A stretch of 28,467 bases of DNA, taken from the NCBI GenBank assembly GCA_964602825.1, contig CAZRSU010000001.1:8836-37302 (forward strand), written 5' to 3'. Shown here one piece after another: positions 2,438-8,415 of the stretch. This stretch comes from an uncultured Ignavibacterium sp. GTDB taxonomy: Bacteria; Bacteroidota; Ignavibacteria; Tepidaquicellales; Tepidaquicellaceae. The position numbers and the translations under genes were made by a program. Numbering within the stretch: position 1 is the first letter of the stretch; the number at the start of each line of letters is the position of its first letter. The notes beneath the pieces were generated by a model. It did no database searches. It was given only the letters and a program-made list of their open reading frames with translations, and was not told the origin of the DNA.

Positions 2438-2472
2438 AGGCGTTAAAGTTCCCCGGAAAAAAAATAATATGC

Positions 2473-2501
2473 TTTACTTTTATAATTATCTTATTTAATT
2501 T
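2473..2501 (+). promoter_or_regulatory. Candidate promoter (TTTACT-N17-TAATTT) placing +1 at G2507
   Basis: The predicted start coincides with the first base of the predicted RNA closing stem. Confidence 0.45.
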
Positions 2502-2506
2502 ATAAC

Positions 2507-2645
2507 GGATGAGCCCGGCTGCCTTGCATTGGGCTTAGAATACAATGCAACGAGGTAATCCTCATTAGCCGTCTTCGGACAGCTCATATATGGCGAATTC
2601 ATCGCGTAACTTCTTCGGAAGTAAGCCGGCTCGTCCAATTTTTTT
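2507..2645 (+). ncRNA. Candidate structured ncRNA or cis-regulatory leader, ~130 nt, six-way junction, family not recognised
   Basis: 13-bp closing stem (2507-2520 with 2624-2636), five internal hairpins of which two have cUUCGg loops, then a T7 tract; GC-rich island in AT-rich intergenic DNA. Confidence 0.7.
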
Positions 2646-2695
2646 ATCCGAAAATTTTCATATCAATATAAATCAGGGTTTAGTATTTTATTCTT

Positions 2696-3169
2696 ATGGA
2701 CGACATCAGAACAGGTACAGGCATAGATATACACAGGTTTGCGGATGACCGCAAATTTATTTTAGGCGGCGTGGATATTCCTTATGAAAAAGGGCTTCTC
2801 GGACACTCGGACGCGGATGCGCTCCTGCACGCACTTTGCGATGCACTGCTTGGAGCTGCGGGATTCGAGGACATCGGACATCAGTTCCCCGACACAGATA
2901 TGAAGTACAAGGATATCAGCAGTCTGATTCTTCTGGAAAAAACAATGTCGCTTGTAAAAAGCAGGTCATACAAGGTTATGAATGCAGACTGCACGATAGT
3001 TCTTCAGGCGCCGAAGATTTATAAATACATCCCTGAAATGAAAAAAAATATTTCTGCAATTCTTGATTCGGAAAATATTTCCATCAAAGCAACAACATCG
3101 GAAAATCTGGGATTTACGGGCAGAGGCGAAGGTATTTATTGTATGGCGTCGGTATTAATTTATAAATAA
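2696..3169 (+). CDS. ispF: 2-C-methyl-D-erythritol 2,4-cyclodiphosphate synthase
   Basis: G.D.H (GIDIHRF), HSDADALLHA..DA.LGA, DIG..FPDTD, KATT.E, GRGEG motifs. Confidence 0.97.
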   Translation: MDDIRTGTGIDIHRFADDRKFILGGVDIPYEKGLLGHSDADALLHALCDALLGAAGFEDIGHQFPDTDMKYKDISSLILLEKTMSLVKSRSYKVMNADCTIVLQAPKIYKYIPEMKKNISAILDSENISIKATTSENLGFTGRGEGIYCMASVLIYK

Positions 3170-3172
3170 GCA

Positions 3173-3739
3173 ATGATTGATTTTTTATATCACATAGATG
3201 TACAGGTTTTTTATTTCATAAATGTAATTCTTGCAAATCCGTTAACGGACAAGTTTATGCCGTTTATCACCGAGCGTGAAAACTGGTATATATTTTTTGC
3301 CATAATGTGGTTTGCTATGGTAATCAAGGGAGGCAGGCGCGGCAGAATCGCCGCGGTGATGATGATTCTATGCATCATTGTCAGCGATCAGGTGTCAAGC
3401 ACATTGATAAAGCATCTCGTTATGCGCGAGCGCCCGTGCACAGTACTTCAGGGCGTACACCTGCTTGTACCGTGTCTTAATTCTTTTTCATTTCCGTCTT
3501 CCCATGCGGTGAATCATTTTGCGGGTGCGGTTGTGCTTTCGCATTTCTTCCCCGAATACAGAGTGCCGGTTTACGGAACCAGTTTTATCATCGCACTGTC
3601 ACGGGTTTTTGTCGGCGTTCATTATCCTTCCGATATGATTGGCGGCATCGCGATAGGAATTTTAATAGGAATGTTTCTGATATATCTGTGGAGTCTGGTA
3701 AATAAAGGTCTGAAGATTGATTACAAAAAAAAGAAATAG
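3173..3739 (+). CDS. PAP2-family membrane phosphatase (undecaprenyl-PP or lipid phosphatase-like)
   Basis: K..V.RERP, SFPSSH, SRV.VGVHYPSD motifs; hydrophobic segments. Confidence 0.9.
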   Translation: MIDFLYHIDVQVFYFINVILANPLTDKFMPFITERENWYIFFAIMWFAMVIKGGRRGRIAAVMMILCIIVSDQVSSTLIKHLVMRERPCTVLQGVHLLVPCLNSFSFPSSHAVNHFAGAVVLSHFFPEYRVPVYGTSFIIALSRVFVGVHYPSDMIGGIAIGILIGMFLIYLWSLVNKGLKIDYKKKK

Positions 3740-5369
3740 CATACTGCTCAGCATTGCCTGCGGAATATCCATCGGACTGTCGTTTCCGCCGTTTTATCTA
3801 AGTTACCTGATTTTTGCGGGATACGGACTTCTTGCATTTTTGATTTACACTTCTGAAAATTACAAACAGTTATTCACGCGCACATACCTTGCTTTTTTTG
3901 TGCTTGACCTTGTTGCAATCTCATGGCTGCCGCTTAGCGGAATGCGCGAAAATGCTGACAGGTTTCTGATTCTCGGCGGGGTTGTTACCATCATTCTCCA
4001 CAGCATCACGCTTCAGATTCCCGTATTCCTTTTTTATATTTTCTACCGGCGCGCATCACTCGCTGCAAAGAAAAATTCATACTTGCTTTTTTTACTGTAT
4101 CCGTTTTTTCAGGTTGGATTTGAATACCTGACTACATCGCAGGAGTTCAGTTTCCCCTGGCTAAGCGCAGGTCACGCATTCACAAACGTGCTTGTAAAAA
4201 TTCAGTTCGCCGACATCACGGGTTTATTCGGCGTATCGCTCTGGGCAGTATTTACCGGCATAATGTTTTTCTATTTATACCTCGCGCTTTTTACGGATAT
4301 TATATCCCGCAAAAAAGTTTTGCCGCTTTTAATTTTTACTCTGATATTTTTTATGCTGCCAGATTTGTATAATTATTCAAACAGGTGCAGCGGAAAATAT
4401 TCTGAAAATAAATCAACTGATACTCTGAGGGCGGCAATTATACAGCCGGACATTAATCCGTGGAGTAAGTGGAGTTCCGCACCGAAAGACCTGATGAAGG
4501 AATATATCAGGCAGATTGAGTCGCTCACCGACACTGCAAAGCGTCCCGACATCATCATTCTTCCCGAAACGGCAATGCCTTATTATCTTTTATATCCGGC
4601 TTACAAAGACCGTATGGACGAACTCACACATTTTGTGGATTCGCTGAACATACCGCTGCTGACGGGATTTGTTAACCTCCAGACTTATTCAAATCCGAAG
4701 GACATACGCCCCGATTCTAAAAGATTTTCAGACGGAACGTACTATGATGTTTTCAATTCAGCGCTTCTGATTACAAAAAATAAACTTCAGATTTATAATA
4801 AAATCAAACTGGTTGTCGCAAGCGAGAGAATGCCGTATCAGGAAAAAATTCCTTTCATCAGAAATCTGGTTAACTGGAGCGTCGGCATAAGCGCATTCCA
4901 GACGGGCAAAGACACAACGGTATTTTCCGTTGATAATAAGTTTAAATTCAATACCGCAATTTGCTATGAATCGGTTTATCCCGAATTTTTTTCGCAATTT
5001 ATAAAACGCGGCTCGCAGGCCGGCGTGGTGATTACAAATGACGGATGGTGGGGAAAACTTGCGGGCACATACCAGCATAACCGCTATGCGGTTTTCAGGG
5101 CGGTGGAAAACAGGAAATGGATTTTAAGGTGCGGAAATACGGGCATCTCGGGGAGCATTGACCCGTACGGAAATTTGTATTCGCAGAGCGAAGTTAATGA
5201 AAAAGAAAATTTGCTTGTGAACTTCGGAACGGGCTCGCCGTCAATGACATTTTACACTATGCACGGGGATTACATCGGCAGATTCAGCCTATGCCTGATG
5301 CTGGCTCTTGCGGTGATATCGCTGATTATAAAATTTGTTTTGCTGCTTTTTAAAAAGAAATCATCATAA
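3717..5369 (+). CDS. lnt: Apolipoprotein N-acyltransferase (TTG start)
   Basis: N-terminal TM bundle plus nitrilase domain with catalytic E (LPETA), K (YNKIKLV), C (ICYES); NDGWW; R.VEN..W..R..NTGIS. Confidence 0.93.
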   Translation: MITKKRNSILLSIACGISIGLSFPPFYLSYLIFAGYGLLAFLIYTSENYKQLFTRTYLAFFVLDLVAISWLPLSGMRENADRFLILGGVVTIILHSITLQIPVFLFYIFYRRASLAAKKNSYLLFLLYPFFQVGFEYLTTSQEFSFPWLSAGHAFTNVLVKIQFADITGLFGVSLWAVFTGIMFFYLYLALFTDIISRKKVLPLLIFTLIFFMLPDLYNYSNRCSGKYSENKSTDTLRAAIIQPDINPWSKWSSAPKDLMKEYIRQIESLTDTAKRPDIIILPETAMPYYLLYPAYKDRMDELTHFVDSLNIPLLTGFVNLQTYSNPKDIRPDSKRFSDGTYYDVFNSALLITKNKLQIYNKIKLVVASERMPYQEKIPFIRNLVNWSVGISAFQTGKDTTVFSVDNKFKFNTAICYESVYPEFFSQFIKRGSQAGVVITNDGWWGKLAGTYQHNRYAVFRAVENRKWILRCGNTGISGSIDPYGNLYSQSEVNEKENLLVNFGTGSPSMTFYTMHGDYIGRFSLCLMLALAVISLIIKFVLLLFKKKSS

Positions 5370-7046
5370 CTTCGAAAAAATATCATCCATACTTTTCGGA
5401 AAATCGTCATCATCTTTTTCGCTGCTTTCGTGTTTAGATTTATTGCCCGAAAAATCGCCGAGGTCTATATCATCATCCCATATATCAAGGTTTGACATAT
5501 CGCTTTCGGGAGGTATTATATTTACGGGCGGTTTAATTTCTTCTTCAGGTTTTATCTGCGGTGCAGGCGGTTTCATTACGGGAACAGGAGCATCCGATTT
5601 TATAAGCCTTTCGAATTCTTCTTCGATTTTTCTGCGCTCTTCTTCGAATTTCCTTATAGTTTCATTGTACTTTTCCTCCAGTTTATTCTTTTCTTCTGCA
5701 GTCTGGTCTTCCAGTGAAAAATCCGGCATGGATAATTGTTCGGGTTTCTGCTCGTTCTGCTCTAAAGGTTTTGAATACGATTCAAATTTTATCTTCGGCG
5801 GAATATTTCCCTTTCCCGAAAGATAATTTTCAAAATCTTCCCTTTCTTTTGCGAAACGCTCTTCACTTTTCCTGTATTCCTCTTCAAATAATTTCTCTTC
5901 GATTGACAGTTCTTCTTCAAGGGATTTCGGCTGCTCAGTCACTTTTTCTTCCGTGATATTCTCAACCGGCGCGGGCTCAGCAGCGGTCTGCTGCGGTTCG
6001 CGCTCAACGATAGGCTGCTGCGGTTCTGGTTCAACAAATGTACGCGGCGGCTCGGAAACCACAACCGGTTCCGGTTCCTTCCGTATAATAACAGGCGCCG
6101 GAACTTCCGGCTCTGTGGATATGAAGGGCTCTGTAATTTCTTTATGTGATACTTCTTTAACGGGTTCTTTGATTACCTGAGGTTCAACCTTGAAATCAAA
6201 ATCTTCAAACACTGAAATTGGTTCATCAATCGGAAGTGAATCGGTTTCATATTCGGGAATATACACAGGTTCGACTTTCATCCACGGCTCTGCAGCAGAT
6301 TCGGTCTTCTTTTTCTCGGGCGGGCGCACAGGCGCGGGCGGGGTTTCAGGCTGGGGAGGAATTTCAGGTGCGATGACCGGAATTATTTCAGGAGGGACAT
6401 ATTCGGGTACCGGCGGAATAAACTGCGGTTCAGGCGGAAATATTTCTTCAGGTTTTTCCTCCGGCTCCGTAATTTTTTCTTCGGGAATTATTTTCTGCTC
6501 TTCATCTTCTTCCGGTTTTTCAAAAAACTTTACAATTGACTGCTTAAGGTCATTGAAATTGAAATTAACTTCCTTTGCAAATTTACGGGCAGGCGAAAAT
6601 TTTATTTTGTCATTTTTGATTCTGAATTTTCCGAATTCCGCAATATTAACATTCTTGCCCTTAAGAATTGCTTTCGAAATTTCGCGGAAAAGAGACACAT
6701 AATATTCGTAAACTTTGTCCTCGGATATCGAAAGTTCGGCGGCGGCTGACTTAACTATTTCCAGCCCCGAAAATTCTTTTCTTTCATCAGCTTTTTCACC
6801 CTGAAATACAAAAACGATTTTATCCTTCGGAGGTATTAAAACAAGAGCATTTAATTTGTAATCTTCCCTTGTTTCCATTCTTCGCCGCTGAACGGCAAAT
6901 TCGCCGAGATAATCCGCAAAAAAATATTTTTGCTCCGTTATCCTGTCTTTTATCTGATTAATGATATAATCAAATACCATTTCACAGAGATGCCTGCTGA
7001 TTCGTGCATCCTTGTTAGCCTTATTGATAAGACTGTATTTATTCAT
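5364..7046 (-). CDS. Protein with two N-terminal HU/IHF-like (HU-CCDC81-like) domains and a long Pro/Glu-rich acidic disordered tail
   Basis: Two helix-helix-beta segments with 'LGEF.V' and 'FGKF.I' HU-like motifs; ATG at 7046 overlaps the upstream stop (ATGAATAA) and is preferred over 7073. Confidence 0.65.
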   Translation of the reverse strand: MNKYSLINKANKDARISRHLCEMVFDYIINQIKDRITEQKYFFADYLGEFAVQRRRMETREDYKLNALVLIPPKDKIVFVFQGEKADERKEFSGLEIVKSAAAELSISEDKVYEYYVSLFREISKAILKGKNVNIAEFGKFRIKNDKIKFSPARKFAKEVNFNFNDLKQSIVKFFEKPEEDEEQKIIPEEKITEPEEKPEEIFPPEPQFIPPVPEYVPPEIIPVIAPEIPPQPETPPAPVRPPEKKKTESAAEPWMKVEPVYIPEYETDSLPIDEPISVFEDFDFKVEPQVIKEPVKEVSHKEITEPFISTEPEVPAPVIIRKEPEPVVVSEPPRTFVEPEPQQPIVEREPQQTAAEPAPVENITEEKVTEQPKSLEEELSIEEKLFEEEYRKSEERFAKEREDFENYLSGKGNIPPKIKFESYSKPLEQNEQKPEQLSMPDFSLEDQTAEEKNKLEEKYNETIRKFEEERRKIEEEFERLIKSDAPVPVMKPPAPQIKPEEEIKPPVNIIPPESDMSNLDIWDDDIDLGDFSGNKSKHESSEKDDDDFPKSMDDIFSKL

Positions 7047-8415
7047 TATTGTAAATTTTGATAACTGAATCAATTTCGTTTAAAGATTCATATCTCCCGA
7101 AACGAACCTTATACACAGTTCCCTTTACAGAATCCTGTACGTCCAGTATATTTACATCAAAACCCATATTTTCAAGTGCGCTTGCTCTGGCATCCGCCGC
7201 CTGTTTATCCCTGAATGAACCTGCCTGCACGCATAACCCGCTGTCAATGCGGACAACCATCATACCCGCAGATTTGAGCGATGAATCAAGCCCGGCAGGA
7301 ATCGTAAGCGCAGTGGCGTCGGATAATTTTTCATTTAACACATTTTCATTTTTCACCGGTGCGGCAGCCTGCTGCTGCGGCCTTCTGGAAATTACCAGAG
7401 AATAATAAACTCCGTATATTATAAGAAAAATAAATGCAACAAGTAACGCCAGAATTAATATATTTTTGAATATCGTAGGCTTGCCTTTGGACTCTTGCAG
7501 ATAAATATTTGCAAGTTTCTGAGCGGGCTTATCCGACACGAAATGCGGCGGCTGTTGCTTATGTTCTTCCTGCTGCGGATAAATCACTCCCTCGATTTCA
7601 TAATGCAGGCGCTTTAACTCCTCGGGAATTTCCACCTTTGCAATTTCATTTTCAAGTTCAATTTGTTCTGCAGTATGAATATTTTCTTCTTTACCGGTAT
7701 CCGCTAAAATATTTTTATTAAAAATTTTGTCTATAGAAAAATCCGGAATATCATCAGGTTTTGGCTGCGGCGCGGTCTTCTTCTGCAGAAGTGAATTAGC
7801 CGTATCCCAGTCCTGACGGGCTTTTGCGGAATCGCCCAGCAATTTCTGATAAACATTTCCGCGGTTGTGATATGCCTGCGCATAATCCGGCTTAAGGTTT
7901 ATCGCTGAAGTAAAGTCCGCAAGCGCTTCATTCGCTTTTGATAAATACATATAGCAGATTCCGCGCGCATTAAATGCTGCGGCGCTGCCGGGTTCGATGG
8001 TTACGGCACGCTCCGCGTCTGCAAGTGCCTCGCTGTATTTTTTCAGATTGCGGTATGCCTTTGACCGCTGAATGTATGCTTCGTGATTTAAGGGTTCGGA
8101 ATTTATTGCACGGGAAAAATCCGAGAGAGCGTCTCCGGGTTTATTCTGCTTTGATTTGCATAACCCTGACTTAGTGAATAATATTGATAAAAATTTTTCG
8201 CTTCCCTGCTGGTTTTTATCCGCAAAATCAATTGCAGAAGTGTATGAATCAATCGCTGCATCAAGGTCATTCAGTCCGTAATAGCAGTCTCCCCGCAATT
8301 CAAATGCTTCGGAGTTTCCAGGATTTTCCTGAATTAATTTGTTGCAGAGTTTGAGGGCGTTTTCGAAGCGGTGTAAACGGATTTCAGAAAAAATTTCATC
8401 AATTGATTTTGTCAT
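7039..8415 (-). CDS. TPR-repeat, single-TM, SPOR-domain protein (septal peptidoglycan-binding candidate)
   Basis: Several TPRs (A...RG..Y..L.....A..D...AI), hydrophobic TM ILILALLVAFIFLIIYGVYY, C-terminal SPOR motif VQAGSF....A...A..L...G......YKVRFG.Y. Confidence 0.85.
   Translation of the reverse strand: MTKSIDEIFSEIRLHRFENALKLCNKLIQENPGNSEAFELRGDCYYGLNDLDAAIDSYTSAIDFADKNQQGSEKFLSILFTKSGLCKSKQNKPGDALSDFSRAINSEPLNHEAYIQRSKAYRNLKKYSEALADAERAVTIEPGSAAAFNARGICYMYLSKANEALADFTSAINLKPDYAQAYHNRGNVYQKLLGDSAKARQDWDTANSLLQKKTAPQPKPDDIPDFSIDKIFNKNILADTGKEENIHTAEQIELENEIAKVEIPEELKRLHYEIEGVIYPQQEEHKQQPPHFVSDKPAQKLANIYLQESKGKPTIFKNILILALLVAFIFLIIYGVYYSLVISRRPQQQAAAPVKNENVLNEKLSDATALTIPAGLDSSLKSAGMMVVRIDSGLCVQAGSFRDKQAADARASALENMGFDVNILDVQDSVKGTVYKVRFGRYESLNEIDSVIKIYNNE

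What the first reader, a model, noticed from the sequence alone, without database searches (positions are those of the whole stretch)
2473..2645. Unassigned 130-nt multi-branched RNA between dinB and ispF with its own promoter and U-tract
Seen: P1 2507-2520 pairs with 2624-2636 (13 bp, one G-U pair, one bulge). It encloses P2 TTGCATTG/CAATGCAA (2524-2550), P3 GAGG-TAAT-CCTC (2552-2563), P4 AGCcGTC-TTCG-GACaGCT (2567-2584), P5 GCGA-ATTCA-TCGC (2593-2605) and P6 ACTTC-TTCG-GAAGT (2609-2622), followed by T7. A TTTACT-N17-TAATTT promoter would start at the first G of P1. The two cUUCGg tetraloops indicate selection at the RNA level on the + strand. By eye it lacks the SRP GNRA/AGCAG motif, tRNA T-loop, 6S rod shape and FMN consensus. 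Inference: either a stand-alone sRNA or an attenuator/riboswitch ~50 nt upstream of an isoprenoid/lipid operon (ispF-PAP2-lnt); an isoprenoid-linked riboswitch would be new.
Basis: partly seen in the sequence, partly recalled or inferred. Interest (0 to 1): 0.72.

Follow-up and report, generated by a model that had tools for sequence, protein, structure and literature searches.

The report
New clade-specific structured RNA before ispF
A roughly 135-base RNA gene with its own promoter and terminator, folding into a long closing stem around five small hairpins, is conserved with many compensating base changes just upstream of an isoprenoid/lipoprotein operon in one small group of uncultured wastewater Ignavibacteria; it matches no known RNA family and is more likely a stand-alone small RNA than a riboswitch.

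Summary
The minimum-energy fold is P1 enclosing P2-P6 (z = -5.05), followed by U7.

The element is a real RNA family. I recovered 7 distinct sequences in 3 deep lineages of one Ignavibacterium-like clade. Between these lineages ispF is about 78% identical in protein and 46-58% identical at third codon positions. Each lineage folds on its own into the same six-helix shape. On the joint alignment 95.7% of cells pair, and 21 of 37 pairs carry double changes (0 of 500 shuffles reach this; slid controls give 34-50% pairing). G-U pairs, the promoter and the U-tract all fit the + strand only.

The element is single-copy and matches no Rfam family, tRNA, phage or plasmid. No credible match appeared in about 240 other genomes of the family, order and class.

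It always lies 40-57 nt upstream of ispF, even where the upstream neighbour is not dinB. A fourth sister lineage lacks it while keeping the conserved ispF-proximal box.

Four points favour a stand-alone sRNA (about 0.55) over a cis attenuator or riboswitch (about 0.28):
- the junctions vary in length and sequence;
- no antiterminator better than chance was found;
- the distribution is very narrow;
- ispF appears to have its own promoter downstream of the terminator.

Function is untested, and no RNA-seq was available.

The parts
2456..2469 (+). A-rich tract upstream of the -35 hexamer (possible UP element)
   Evidence: An A-rich run sits at the same place in all three lineages. Calling it an UP element is inference only.
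2473..2478 (+). -35-like hexamer TTTACT of the RNA's own promoter
   Evidence: It is kept as TTTACT or TTTACA in all lineages, while the 17-nt spacer diverges (4 of 17 changed between window and G001).
2496..2501 (+). -10/-7-like hexamer TAATTT
   Evidence: It is kept as TAATTT or TATTTT at a constant 17-nt spacing in all lineages. It also fits the Bacteroidota-type TAnnTTT motif (that comparison is from my own knowledge). It was not called by the strict sigma-70 scan.
2507..2646 (+). The predicted RNA, about 135-140 nt, from the first G of P1 to the end of the U-tract
   Evidence: Fold z = -5.05. Covariance-model hits of 159-185 bits here and 52-168 bits in homologues. The body is 94.6% identical to G001, against 78-83% at third codon positions.
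2507..2520 (+). P1 5' strand
   Evidence: 13 pairs, 5 with double changes, 98.9% of cells paired. The outer GGAU.AG is invariant.
2524..2550 (+). P2 hairpin with an 11-nt apical loop (2532-2542) of consensus GGCUUNNAAUA
   Evidence: The loop and inner stem are sequence-conserved across lineages whose third codon positions are near saturation. The outer stem covaries.
2552..2563 (+). P3 hairpin, GAGG/CCUC stem with a variable loop
   Evidence: The stem sequence is kept and the loop is UAAU, CUCGA or UAUGA in the three lineages.
2567..2584 (+). P4 hairpin with an internal mismatch or 3' bulge
   Evidence: The stem sequence differs completely among the three lineages but always pairs, always with a defect on the 3' side.
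2593..2605 (+). P5 hairpin
   Evidence: All four modelled pairs carry double changes, and loop length and sequence vary.
2609..2622 (+). P6 hairpin, CUUC-UUCG-GAAG
   Evidence: Sequence-conserved; four of five pairs never vary.
2624..2636 (+). P1 3' strand
   Evidence: It pairs with 2507-2520 and is followed directly by the U-tract in every lineage.
2640..2646 (+). U-tract (U7 here, U7-U9 in homologues); with P1 it forms an intrinsic-terminator-like end
   Evidence: Present in all 7 sequences. The simple terminator scan does not call it because the 'loop' of P1 is the whole 103-nt junction.
2655..2695 (+). Conserved ispF-proximal box, probably the ispF promoter (TTCATA-N18-TAGTAT) and a very short leader; not part of the RNA
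   Evidence: 98% identical to G001. Nearly identical in the RNA-less G002/L063 lineage. The two hexamers are kept and the spacer is changed in L074. The promoter reading is inference.
2696..5369 (+). Downstream operon ispF (2696-3169), PAP2 phosphatase (3173-3739), Lnt apolipoprotein N-acyltransferase (3717-5369)
   Evidence: Pfam YgbB, PAP2, and LNT_N plus CN_hydrolase. The same order is found in relatives.

Best explanation
This is a clade-specific, independently transcribed small structured RNA gene. Transcription starts from its own promoter (TTTACw-N17-TAwTTT) at the first G of P1. The RNA folds into a 12-13 bp closing stem (P1) that holds both ends together and encloses five short hairpins (P2-P6). 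Transcription stops at the U7-9 run that directly follows P1, so P1 plus the U-tract acts as a constitutive intrinsic terminator. The parts under sequence selection, rather than only structural selection, are the outer P1, the GCC in junction J1/2, the P2 inner stem with its 11-nt loop GGCUUNNAAUA, the GAGG/CCUC stem of P3, and the CUUC-UUCG-GAAG hairpin P6. These are the likely contact surfaces for a protein or a target RNA acting in trans. Shown here: the structure, the covariation, the strand, the single copy, the conserved promoter hexamers and U-tract, and the distribution. Inferred: that a discrete transcript exists, that termination is efficient, and that the RNA acts in trans.
For: (1) The architecture is real. 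It is the minimum-energy and centroid fold, z = -5.05. L062 and L074-76 fold independently into the same P1 plus five hairpins.

(2) Covariation on 7 distinct sequences: 95.7% of cells paired, 21 of 37 pairs with double changes, 0 of 500 shuffles as good, and slid controls at 34-50% paired with 0-4 such pairs.

(3) Purifying selection. Against G001 the RNA body has 7 differences in 130 nt, against about 18% expected at third codon positions (P about 2e-5). Between deep lineages third positions are 46-58% identical, yet blocks of the RNA are invariant.

(4) The + strand. Eight G-U cells would be A-C on the other strand, and the promoter and U-tract point the same way.

(5) An own transcription unit. 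The -35 and -10 hexamers and their 17-nt spacing are kept in three lineages while the spacer diverges. Both RNA ends lie in P1, as in stable stand-alone RNAs. In L062 the upstream gene is divergent, so the RNA cannot be a 3' UTR there.

(6) A constitutive terminator. In transcripts truncated before the P1 3' strand, the 5' strand is no more sequestered than shuffled 5' strands (fraction as good 0.11-0.94).

(7) A separate conserved promoter-like box lies between the terminator and ispF. It persists in the lineage that has lost the RNA.

(8) It is not a repeat: single copy, and none of the hairpins is a genomic repeat.
Against: No transcript data of any kind exist. The strict sigma-70 scan does not call the promoter. 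No convincing trans target was found: full-length complements of the P2 loop occur at chance frequency in the genome. The element has stayed directly upstream of ispF, on the same strand, in all three lineages, even where the upstream neighbour changed; this is what a cis element would do. A closing stem around a 103-nt junction is an unusual intrinsic terminator, so its efficiency is unknown. Only three independent lineages exist, all from one clade, so synteny and function are confounded.
Confidence: 0.55

Rival explanations
1. The element is a cis-acting leader (a transcription attenuator, either a riboswitch or protein-dependent) of the ispF-PAP2-lnt operon. Transcripts from the upstream promoter either stop at P1 plus the U-tract or read through into ispF. 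A ligand or protein that organises the five-hairpin junction favours P1 and hence termination.
For: The element is on the same strand, 40-57 nt upstream of ispF, in all 7 sequences of 3 lineages, including L062 where the upstream gene is not dinB. It ends in a terminator-like stem plus U-tract, so read-through would enter ispF. A GCC in J1/2 and a GGC at the start of the P2 loop are both invariant and could form a pairing mutually exclusive with P2; in L062 that alternative hairpin is part of the minimum-energy fold.
Against: The distribution is extremely narrow. No credible match was found in 86 family, 116 order or 150 class genomes, although all 30 nearest relatives checked carry ispF. A sister lineage (G002 and L063) has the same operon and the same proximal box but no element. 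Junctions J4/5 and J6/1 vary in length and sequence, unlike a ligand pocket. No alternative helix sequesters the P1 5' strand better than chance. A promoter-like box lies downstream of the terminator. P2-loop pairing with the ispF start region is not conserved.
Confidence: 0.28
2. The element is a structured terminator or insulator. Its job would be to stop transcription arriving from upstream (for example from the damage-inducible polymerase gene) before the ispF promoter, and perhaps to protect upstream mRNA 3' ends.
For: P1 plus the U-tract lies between dinB and ispF, and no simple terminator follows dinB.
Against: It has its own conserved promoter. In L062 the upstream gene is divergent, so there is nothing to terminate. 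Five internal hairpins with covariation and sequence-conserved loops are not needed for termination.
Confidence: 0.07
3. The element is a remnant or domesticated copy of a small mobile element (MITE/REP-like, with P1 as terminal inverted repeats), or a DNA-level cruciform, with no RNA function.
For: The genome is rich in REP/MITE-like palindromes according to earlier notes. P1 looks like terminal inverted repeats. The element is present or absent between sister lineages. The minus strand also folds well (z = -3.84).
Against: It is single-copy in the genome, and none of its parts is repeated. The two-hairpin pattern scan found the element in the public collections only at this same locus; its other hits were chance matches that the covariance model does not score. 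There is no phage or plasmid match. G-U pairs work on the + strand only. Selection is strong relative to synonymous sites. The promoter and U-tract are conserved.
Confidence: 0.04
4. The element is a highly divergent member of a known housekeeping RNA class (6S, Y RNA, tRNA-like, SRP).
For: No 6S RNA was detected in G000-G002 with either Rfam model, so that slot is formally open. Both ends are paired in P1, as in such RNAs.
Against: There is no Rfam hit even at E up to 10. The shape is a multi-hairpin junction, not a 6S rod. SRP RNA is elsewhere. No TROVE/Ro protein was found. ARAGORN finds nothing. A housekeeping RNA would not be missing from the sister species.
Confidence: 0.04

Closest known systems
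Bacterial trans-acting or protein-binding small RNAs with their own promoter and intrinsic terminator
   Same: Size of about 135 nt, an own promoter, a stem plus U-tract 3' end, a conserved exposed loop, and clade-restricted distribution with loss in a sister lineage.
   Different: The terminator stem is the closing helix of a six-helix junction rather than a simple 3' hairpin. No target or partner is identified. Linkage to one downstream operon is strict in the few lineages known.
Transcription-terminating riboswitches and leader attenuators
   Same: Position in front of, and on the same strand as, a metabolic operon; a multi-helix junction closed by P1; a U-tract after a stem.
   Different: There is no separate expression platform and no antiterminator better than chance. 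Junction nucleotides are not conserved. The element is found in one genus-level clade only and is dispensable in a sister lineage. It matches no Rfam riboswitch.
lnt RNA motif of Chlorobi (recalled from Weinberg et al. 2017, PMC5737381; recall only, because the main text does not name it and no supplement was held)
   Same: As I recall, it is a candidate cis-regulatory RNA upstream of lnt in the sister group of Ignavibacteria. Here lnt is the third gene of the downstream operon.
   Different: No Rfam family, whatever its name, matches this region even at E up to 10. I could not find the family's accession to test it alone, so homology is neither shown nor likely.
6S RNA and Y RNA (stable RNAs with paired termini)
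   Same: The 5' and 3' ends are clamped in one long stem, and the size is similar.
   Different: The shape is not rod-like with a central bubble. There is no Rfam 6S or 6S-Flavo match. No Ro/TROVE gene was found.

Membership tests
Any Rfam 15 family | Covariance-model score at or above the family's gathering threshold | tested here: not met
   There were 0 matches in the whole window at gathering thresholds. At E up to 10 on 2420-2720 the only hits were three noise matches of 14-19 bits, all on the minus strand.
Riboswitch / transcription attenuator | Sits in the 5' region of, and on the same strand as, the regulated gene in independent lineages | tested here: met
   It lies 40-57 nt upstream of ispF in all 7 sequences of 3 lineages, including one with a different upstream neighbour. 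All lineages belong to one clade, so independence is weak.
Riboswitch / transcription attenuator | Conserved unpaired nucleotides in the junction core that could form a ligand pocket | tested here: inconclusive
   J1/2 GCC and the P2 loop are conserved, but J4/5 (3-11 nt) and J6/1 (1-11 nt) vary in length and sequence.
Riboswitch / transcription attenuator | Mutually exclusive terminator and antiterminator structures | tested here: not met
   The terminator is present. Sequestration of the P1 5' strand in truncated transcripts is no better than for shuffled strands in any lineage.
Riboswitch / transcription attenuator | Ligand-dependent change of structure or termination | not testable with these tools
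   This needs in-line probing or in vitro transcription.
Stand-alone bacterial sRNA | Own promoter | tested here: met
   The hexamers TTTACw and TAwTTT and the 17-nt spacing are conserved in 3 lineages while the spacer diverges. This is by conservation only; the start site is not mapped.
Stand-alone bacterial sRNA | Intrinsic terminator at the 3' end | tested here: met
   A 12-13 bp P1 is followed within 0-2 nt by U7-9 in all sequences. Efficiency is untested.
Stand-alone bacterial sRNA | Discrete transcript of the predicted size | not testable with these tools
   No RNA holder was listed, and the runs labelled RNA-Seq look like DNA duplicates.
Stand-alone bacterial sRNA | Conserved accessible seed with conserved target complementarity | tested here: inconclusive
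   A conserved 11-nt loop exists. Genome matches to its complement are at chance level, and the pairing with the ispF start region is not conserved.
MITE / REP dispersed repeat | Multiple dispersed copies | tested here: not met
   One copy in G000 by BLAST and by covariance model. The parts are not repeated. Pattern scans of the public collections find only the same locus.
6S RNA | Rod-like helix with a central bubble; match to RF00013 or RF01685 | tested here: not met
   The fold is a six-helix junction. The 6S models find nothing in G000-G002.
Y RNA | Ro/TROVE protein encoded in the genome, usually nearby | tested here: not met
   PF05731 is absent from G000-G002. These genomes are 88-93% complete.
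tRNA / tmRNA-like | Cloverleaf or tmRNA recognised by ARAGORN | tested here: not met
   0 genes in 2300-2800.
lnt RNA motif (Chlorobi) | Match to its covariance model | tested here: inconclusive
   The all-Rfam scan gives no hit. I could not confirm the family's accession or its presence in the library.

The most novel reading that the evidence does not exclude
The RNA is a new riboswitch-like attenuator in which the aptamer's own closing stem P1 is the terminator. It would sense an isoprenoid (MEP pathway, for example MEcPP) or a lipid-carrier or lipoprotein-maturation metabolite, and gate read-through into ispF-PAP2-lnt. No RNA sensor is known for that chemistry.
Probability: 0.1. Interest if true: 0.85.

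Novelty: new member of a known kind. Interest (0 to 1): 0.42.

Why it matters
Covariation supports six helices, and the gene anatomy is clear: promoter, paired termini, terminator. If it acts in trans, it is one of the first candidate regulatory RNAs for this class. If it acts in cis, it would be the first RNA control element tied to the MEP/isoprenoid and lipoprotein-acylation genes. Its narrow range, and its loss in a sister lineage with an otherwise identical locus, give a natural with/without comparison for experiments.

Tried and rejected
- **Rfam.** The scans at gathering thresholds and at E up to 10 found nothing relevant.
- **Weak covariance-model hits in other genera.** L005, L006, L052-55, L065-73, L077 and L078 lie inside long ORFs, have many broken pairs, or are bare stem plus U-tract terminators. 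I rejected them as chance.
- **Two-hairpin pattern scan.** The other hits in genome and metagenome contigs (Mycobacterium, Clostridia, Rhodospirillales and so on) are chance; the model does not score them. Viral contigs gave 0 hits.
- **Phage and plasmid BLAST.** No match.
- **RNA evidence.** No RNA holder was listed. The runs labelled 'RNA-Seq' have the same sizes as DNA runs and are kept as contigs. Laying them on the window showed only that relatives carry the same locus.
- **Minus-strand 47-aa ORF across the element (2495-2638).** No support. It is an incidental open frame in a structured region.
- **Pairing of the P1 3' strand with the ispF start codon region.** It is lost in G001, so I rejected it (read).
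- **P2 loop as mimic of, or partner for, the ispF-proximal box.** The pairing is -9.2 and -10.9 kcal/mol in two lineages but is not kept in the third. The similarity of the loop to the box does not covary.
- **Genome-wide complements of the P2 loop.** There are 4 non-self hits against about 4.6 expected. The one next to an ATG belongs to a 44-aa ORF.
- **Alternative helix in the window clade (2509-2514 with 2582-2587).** It looked like an antiterminator with one co-varying pair, but the energy gain is no better than for shuffled 5' strands, and it is absent in the other lineages.
- **Literature.** Searches for an ispF- or lnt-linked RNA motif, or for Ignavibacterium sRNAs, gave nothing usable. 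Guessing the Rfam accession of the lnt motif failed: RF02999 is ivy-DE and RF03000 is LOOT.
- **Earlier-findings index.** It has no look-alike.

Full report
**Observation.**
The helices are:
- P1: 2507-2520 with 2624-2636
- P2: 2524-2550
- P3: 2552-2563
- P4: 2567-2584
- P5: 2593-2605
- P6: 2609-2622

The T7 run is at 2640-2646, and TTTACT-N17-TAATTT is at 2473-2501. ViennaRNA gives this architecture as both the minimum-energy and the centroid structure: -54 kcal/mol, shuffles -35.4 +/- 3.7, z = -5.05. The reverse strand folds less well (z = -3.84). Pfam confirms the neighbours: a Y-family polymerase upstream at 1139-2437, then ispF, a PAP2 phosphatase and Lnt downstream.

**Known families.**
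cmscan against all 4227 Rfam 15 families finds nothing in the window at gathering thresholds. At E up to 10 on the 301-nt region it finds only three noise hits, all on the wrong strand. ARAGORN finds no tRNA or tmRNA. The genome's SRP RNA is on another contig. The 6S and 6S-Flavo models find nothing in the three genomes of the genus, but the fold here is not 6S-like. No Ro/TROVE gene is present.

**Copy number and organism.**
The element is single-copy in the 2.42-Mb, 521-contig genome, by BLAST and by covariance model. None of its arms or hairpins is a repeated word. There is no phage or plasmid match. A pattern scan identifies the sister genome G001 as an 'uncultured Ignavibacterium sp.' MAG. 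The DNA is found in sludge, wastewater, biofilm and bioanode metagenomes.

**Homologues.**
A model built from the window and G001 (R1) found nothing credible in 86 family, 116 order or 150 class genomes. The two-hairpin pattern scan of the metagenome collection recovered only two contigs of the G001 type.

I then followed the ispF protein into the large protein collection and fetched the contigs of its closest clusters. This gave four further lineages:
- **P0003 cluster (L056-61).** This is a close variant of the window's own lineage.
- **P0005 cluster (L062).** It carries a diverged copy scoring 43.8 bits with R1 and 112.9 bits once it had been added to R2.
- **P0004 cluster (L074-76).** It carries another diverged copy, 52-59 bits with R2, E about 1e-12 to 1e-14.
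- **P0006 cluster.** Its contig L063 is identical in this spacer to G002's L012, and it lacks the element.

These lineages are about 72-79% identical to one another in ispF protein and 46-58% identical at third codon positions, which is near saturation. The improved models R2 and R3 still found nothing credible elsewhere, and nothing anywhere in G002.

**Structure support.**
Each lineage, folded alone, gives P1 plus five hairpins in the same order, with z = -5.6 for L062.

On the 7-sequence alignment A10:
- 95.7% of cells form standard pairs.
- 21 of 37 pairs show changes on both sides.
- No shuffle out of 500 reaches any of these measures.
- Sliding the partners by 1-3 columns drops pairing to 34-50% and leaves 0-4 double-change pairs.

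The alignment was fitted to the model, which inflates these numbers somewhat. The independent single-sequence folds make the same point.

P4 and P5 have entirely different stem sequences in the three lineages, and inner P1 also covaries. Eight G-U cells fit only the + strand.

Against G001, the RNA body has 7 differences in 130 nt. One is a full compensatory pair (2516/2628), and two are one-sided changes that keep pairing. The expectation from third codon positions is about 18% differences (P about 2e-5).

**What is conserved in sequence.**
The invariant blocks are:
- the outer P1 (GGAU.AG with CU.AUCC);
- GCC in J1/2;
- the inner P2 stem and its 11-nt loop GGCUUNNAAUA;
- the GAGG/CCUC stem of P3;
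- P6 (CUUC-UUCG-GAAG);
- the U-tract.

Junctions J4/5 and J6/1 vary from 1-3 nt to 11 nt.

**Gene anatomy.**
The promoter hexamers TTTACT/TTTACA and TAATTT/TATTTT are kept at a 17-nt spacing in all three lineages, while the spacer and the discriminator diverge. The predicted start is the first G of P1. P1 is followed within 0-2 nt by U7-9 everywhere.

Downstream of the U-tract lies a 40-nt box (2655-2695). It is 98-100% conserved within the clade, including in the RNA-less lineage. In L074 its two hexamers (T[T/C/G]CATA and TA[G/C]TAT, 18 nt apart) are kept while the spacer changes. I therefore read it as the ispF promoter with a very short leader.

**Cis or trans.**
Three things argue for cis. 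The element is always 40-57 nt upstream of ispF on the same strand. It stayed there in L062, where the upstream gene is different and divergent. The invariant GCC and GGC could form a pairing exclusive with P2.

Six things argue against cis:
- The distribution is extremely narrow.
- A sister lineage with the same operon and proximal box has lost it.
- The junctions are variable.
- ispF appears to have a separate promoter.
- No antiterminator was found. In transcripts cut before the P1 3' strand, the 5' strand gains no more pairing energy than shuffled versions do in any lineage. An attractive alternative helix in the window's own lineage fails this control.
- P2-loop pairing with the ispF start region is not conserved.

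No trans target emerged either; loop complements occur at chance frequency.

**Verdict.**
This is a real, new, clade-specific structured RNA family. I rate a stand-alone sRNA (trans-acting or protein-binding, with a constitutive P1/U-tract terminator) at about 0.55. A cis attenuator of ispF-PAP2-lnt gets about 0.28, of which a true metabolite riboswitch is about 0.1. The remaining readings (insulator, mobile remnant, divergent housekeeping RNA) share the rest. No expression data could be obtained.

Noticed in passing
window 2655-2695; L012 and L063 (G002 lineage), L062:1172-1210, L074:2452-2500: A roughly 40-nt box directly upstream of ispF is almost invariant across lineages whose third codon positions are near saturation, including the lineage without the RNA. 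The hexamers T(T/C/G)CATA and TA(G/C)TAT, 18 nt apart, are kept while the spacer changes in L074. It is probably the ispF promoter, giving a leader of only about 2-12 nt.
   Followed up: partly
L013-L016, L021, L024, L025 (upstream of ispF in other genera of the family): At least seven other genera share a different conserved motif of about 45 nt directly upstream of ispF (TTTCGGATTG.ATTAAA ... AAAAATAATA.GTTA). It is a family-wide promoter or operator candidate that genus g1 has replaced.
   Followed up: no
window 2650-2659: A perfect 10-bp palindrome, GAAAATTTTC, lies between the U-tract and the ispF-proximal box. It is present in the window, G001 and L056, but not in L062, L074 or G002. It could be a protein operator or mean nothing.
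   Followed up: no
window 2521-2534 and homologous positions in L062 and L074: The invariant GCC in J1/2 and the invariant GGC at the 5' end of the P2 loop could pair only if P2 opens. In L062 this alternative hairpin (AGCCU with GGGCU) is part of the unconstrained minimum-energy fold, only 0.9 kcal/mol better than the P2 form. No explanation yet.
   Followed up: partly
window 2532-2542: The two variable positions of the P2 loop (AG, AA, CU) sit in a heptad CU-UNN-AA that looks like an anticodon loop (Y32, U33, three bases, then two purines). This may be coincidence.
   Followed up: no
window 5364-7073 (minus strand): A 569-aa protein with an N-terminal HU (Bac_DNA_binding) domain and a long tail converges on lnt. 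The relative in L064 is 838 aa with an added weak SPOR hit.
   Followed up: no
L074:3545-3634 versus window 3717-3739: In the P0004 lineage lnt is called 41 residues shorter (509 aa) and is separated from PAP2 by 89 nt. In the window, PAP2 and lnt overlap by 23 nt. Either the start was called differently or the junction really differs.
   Followed up: no
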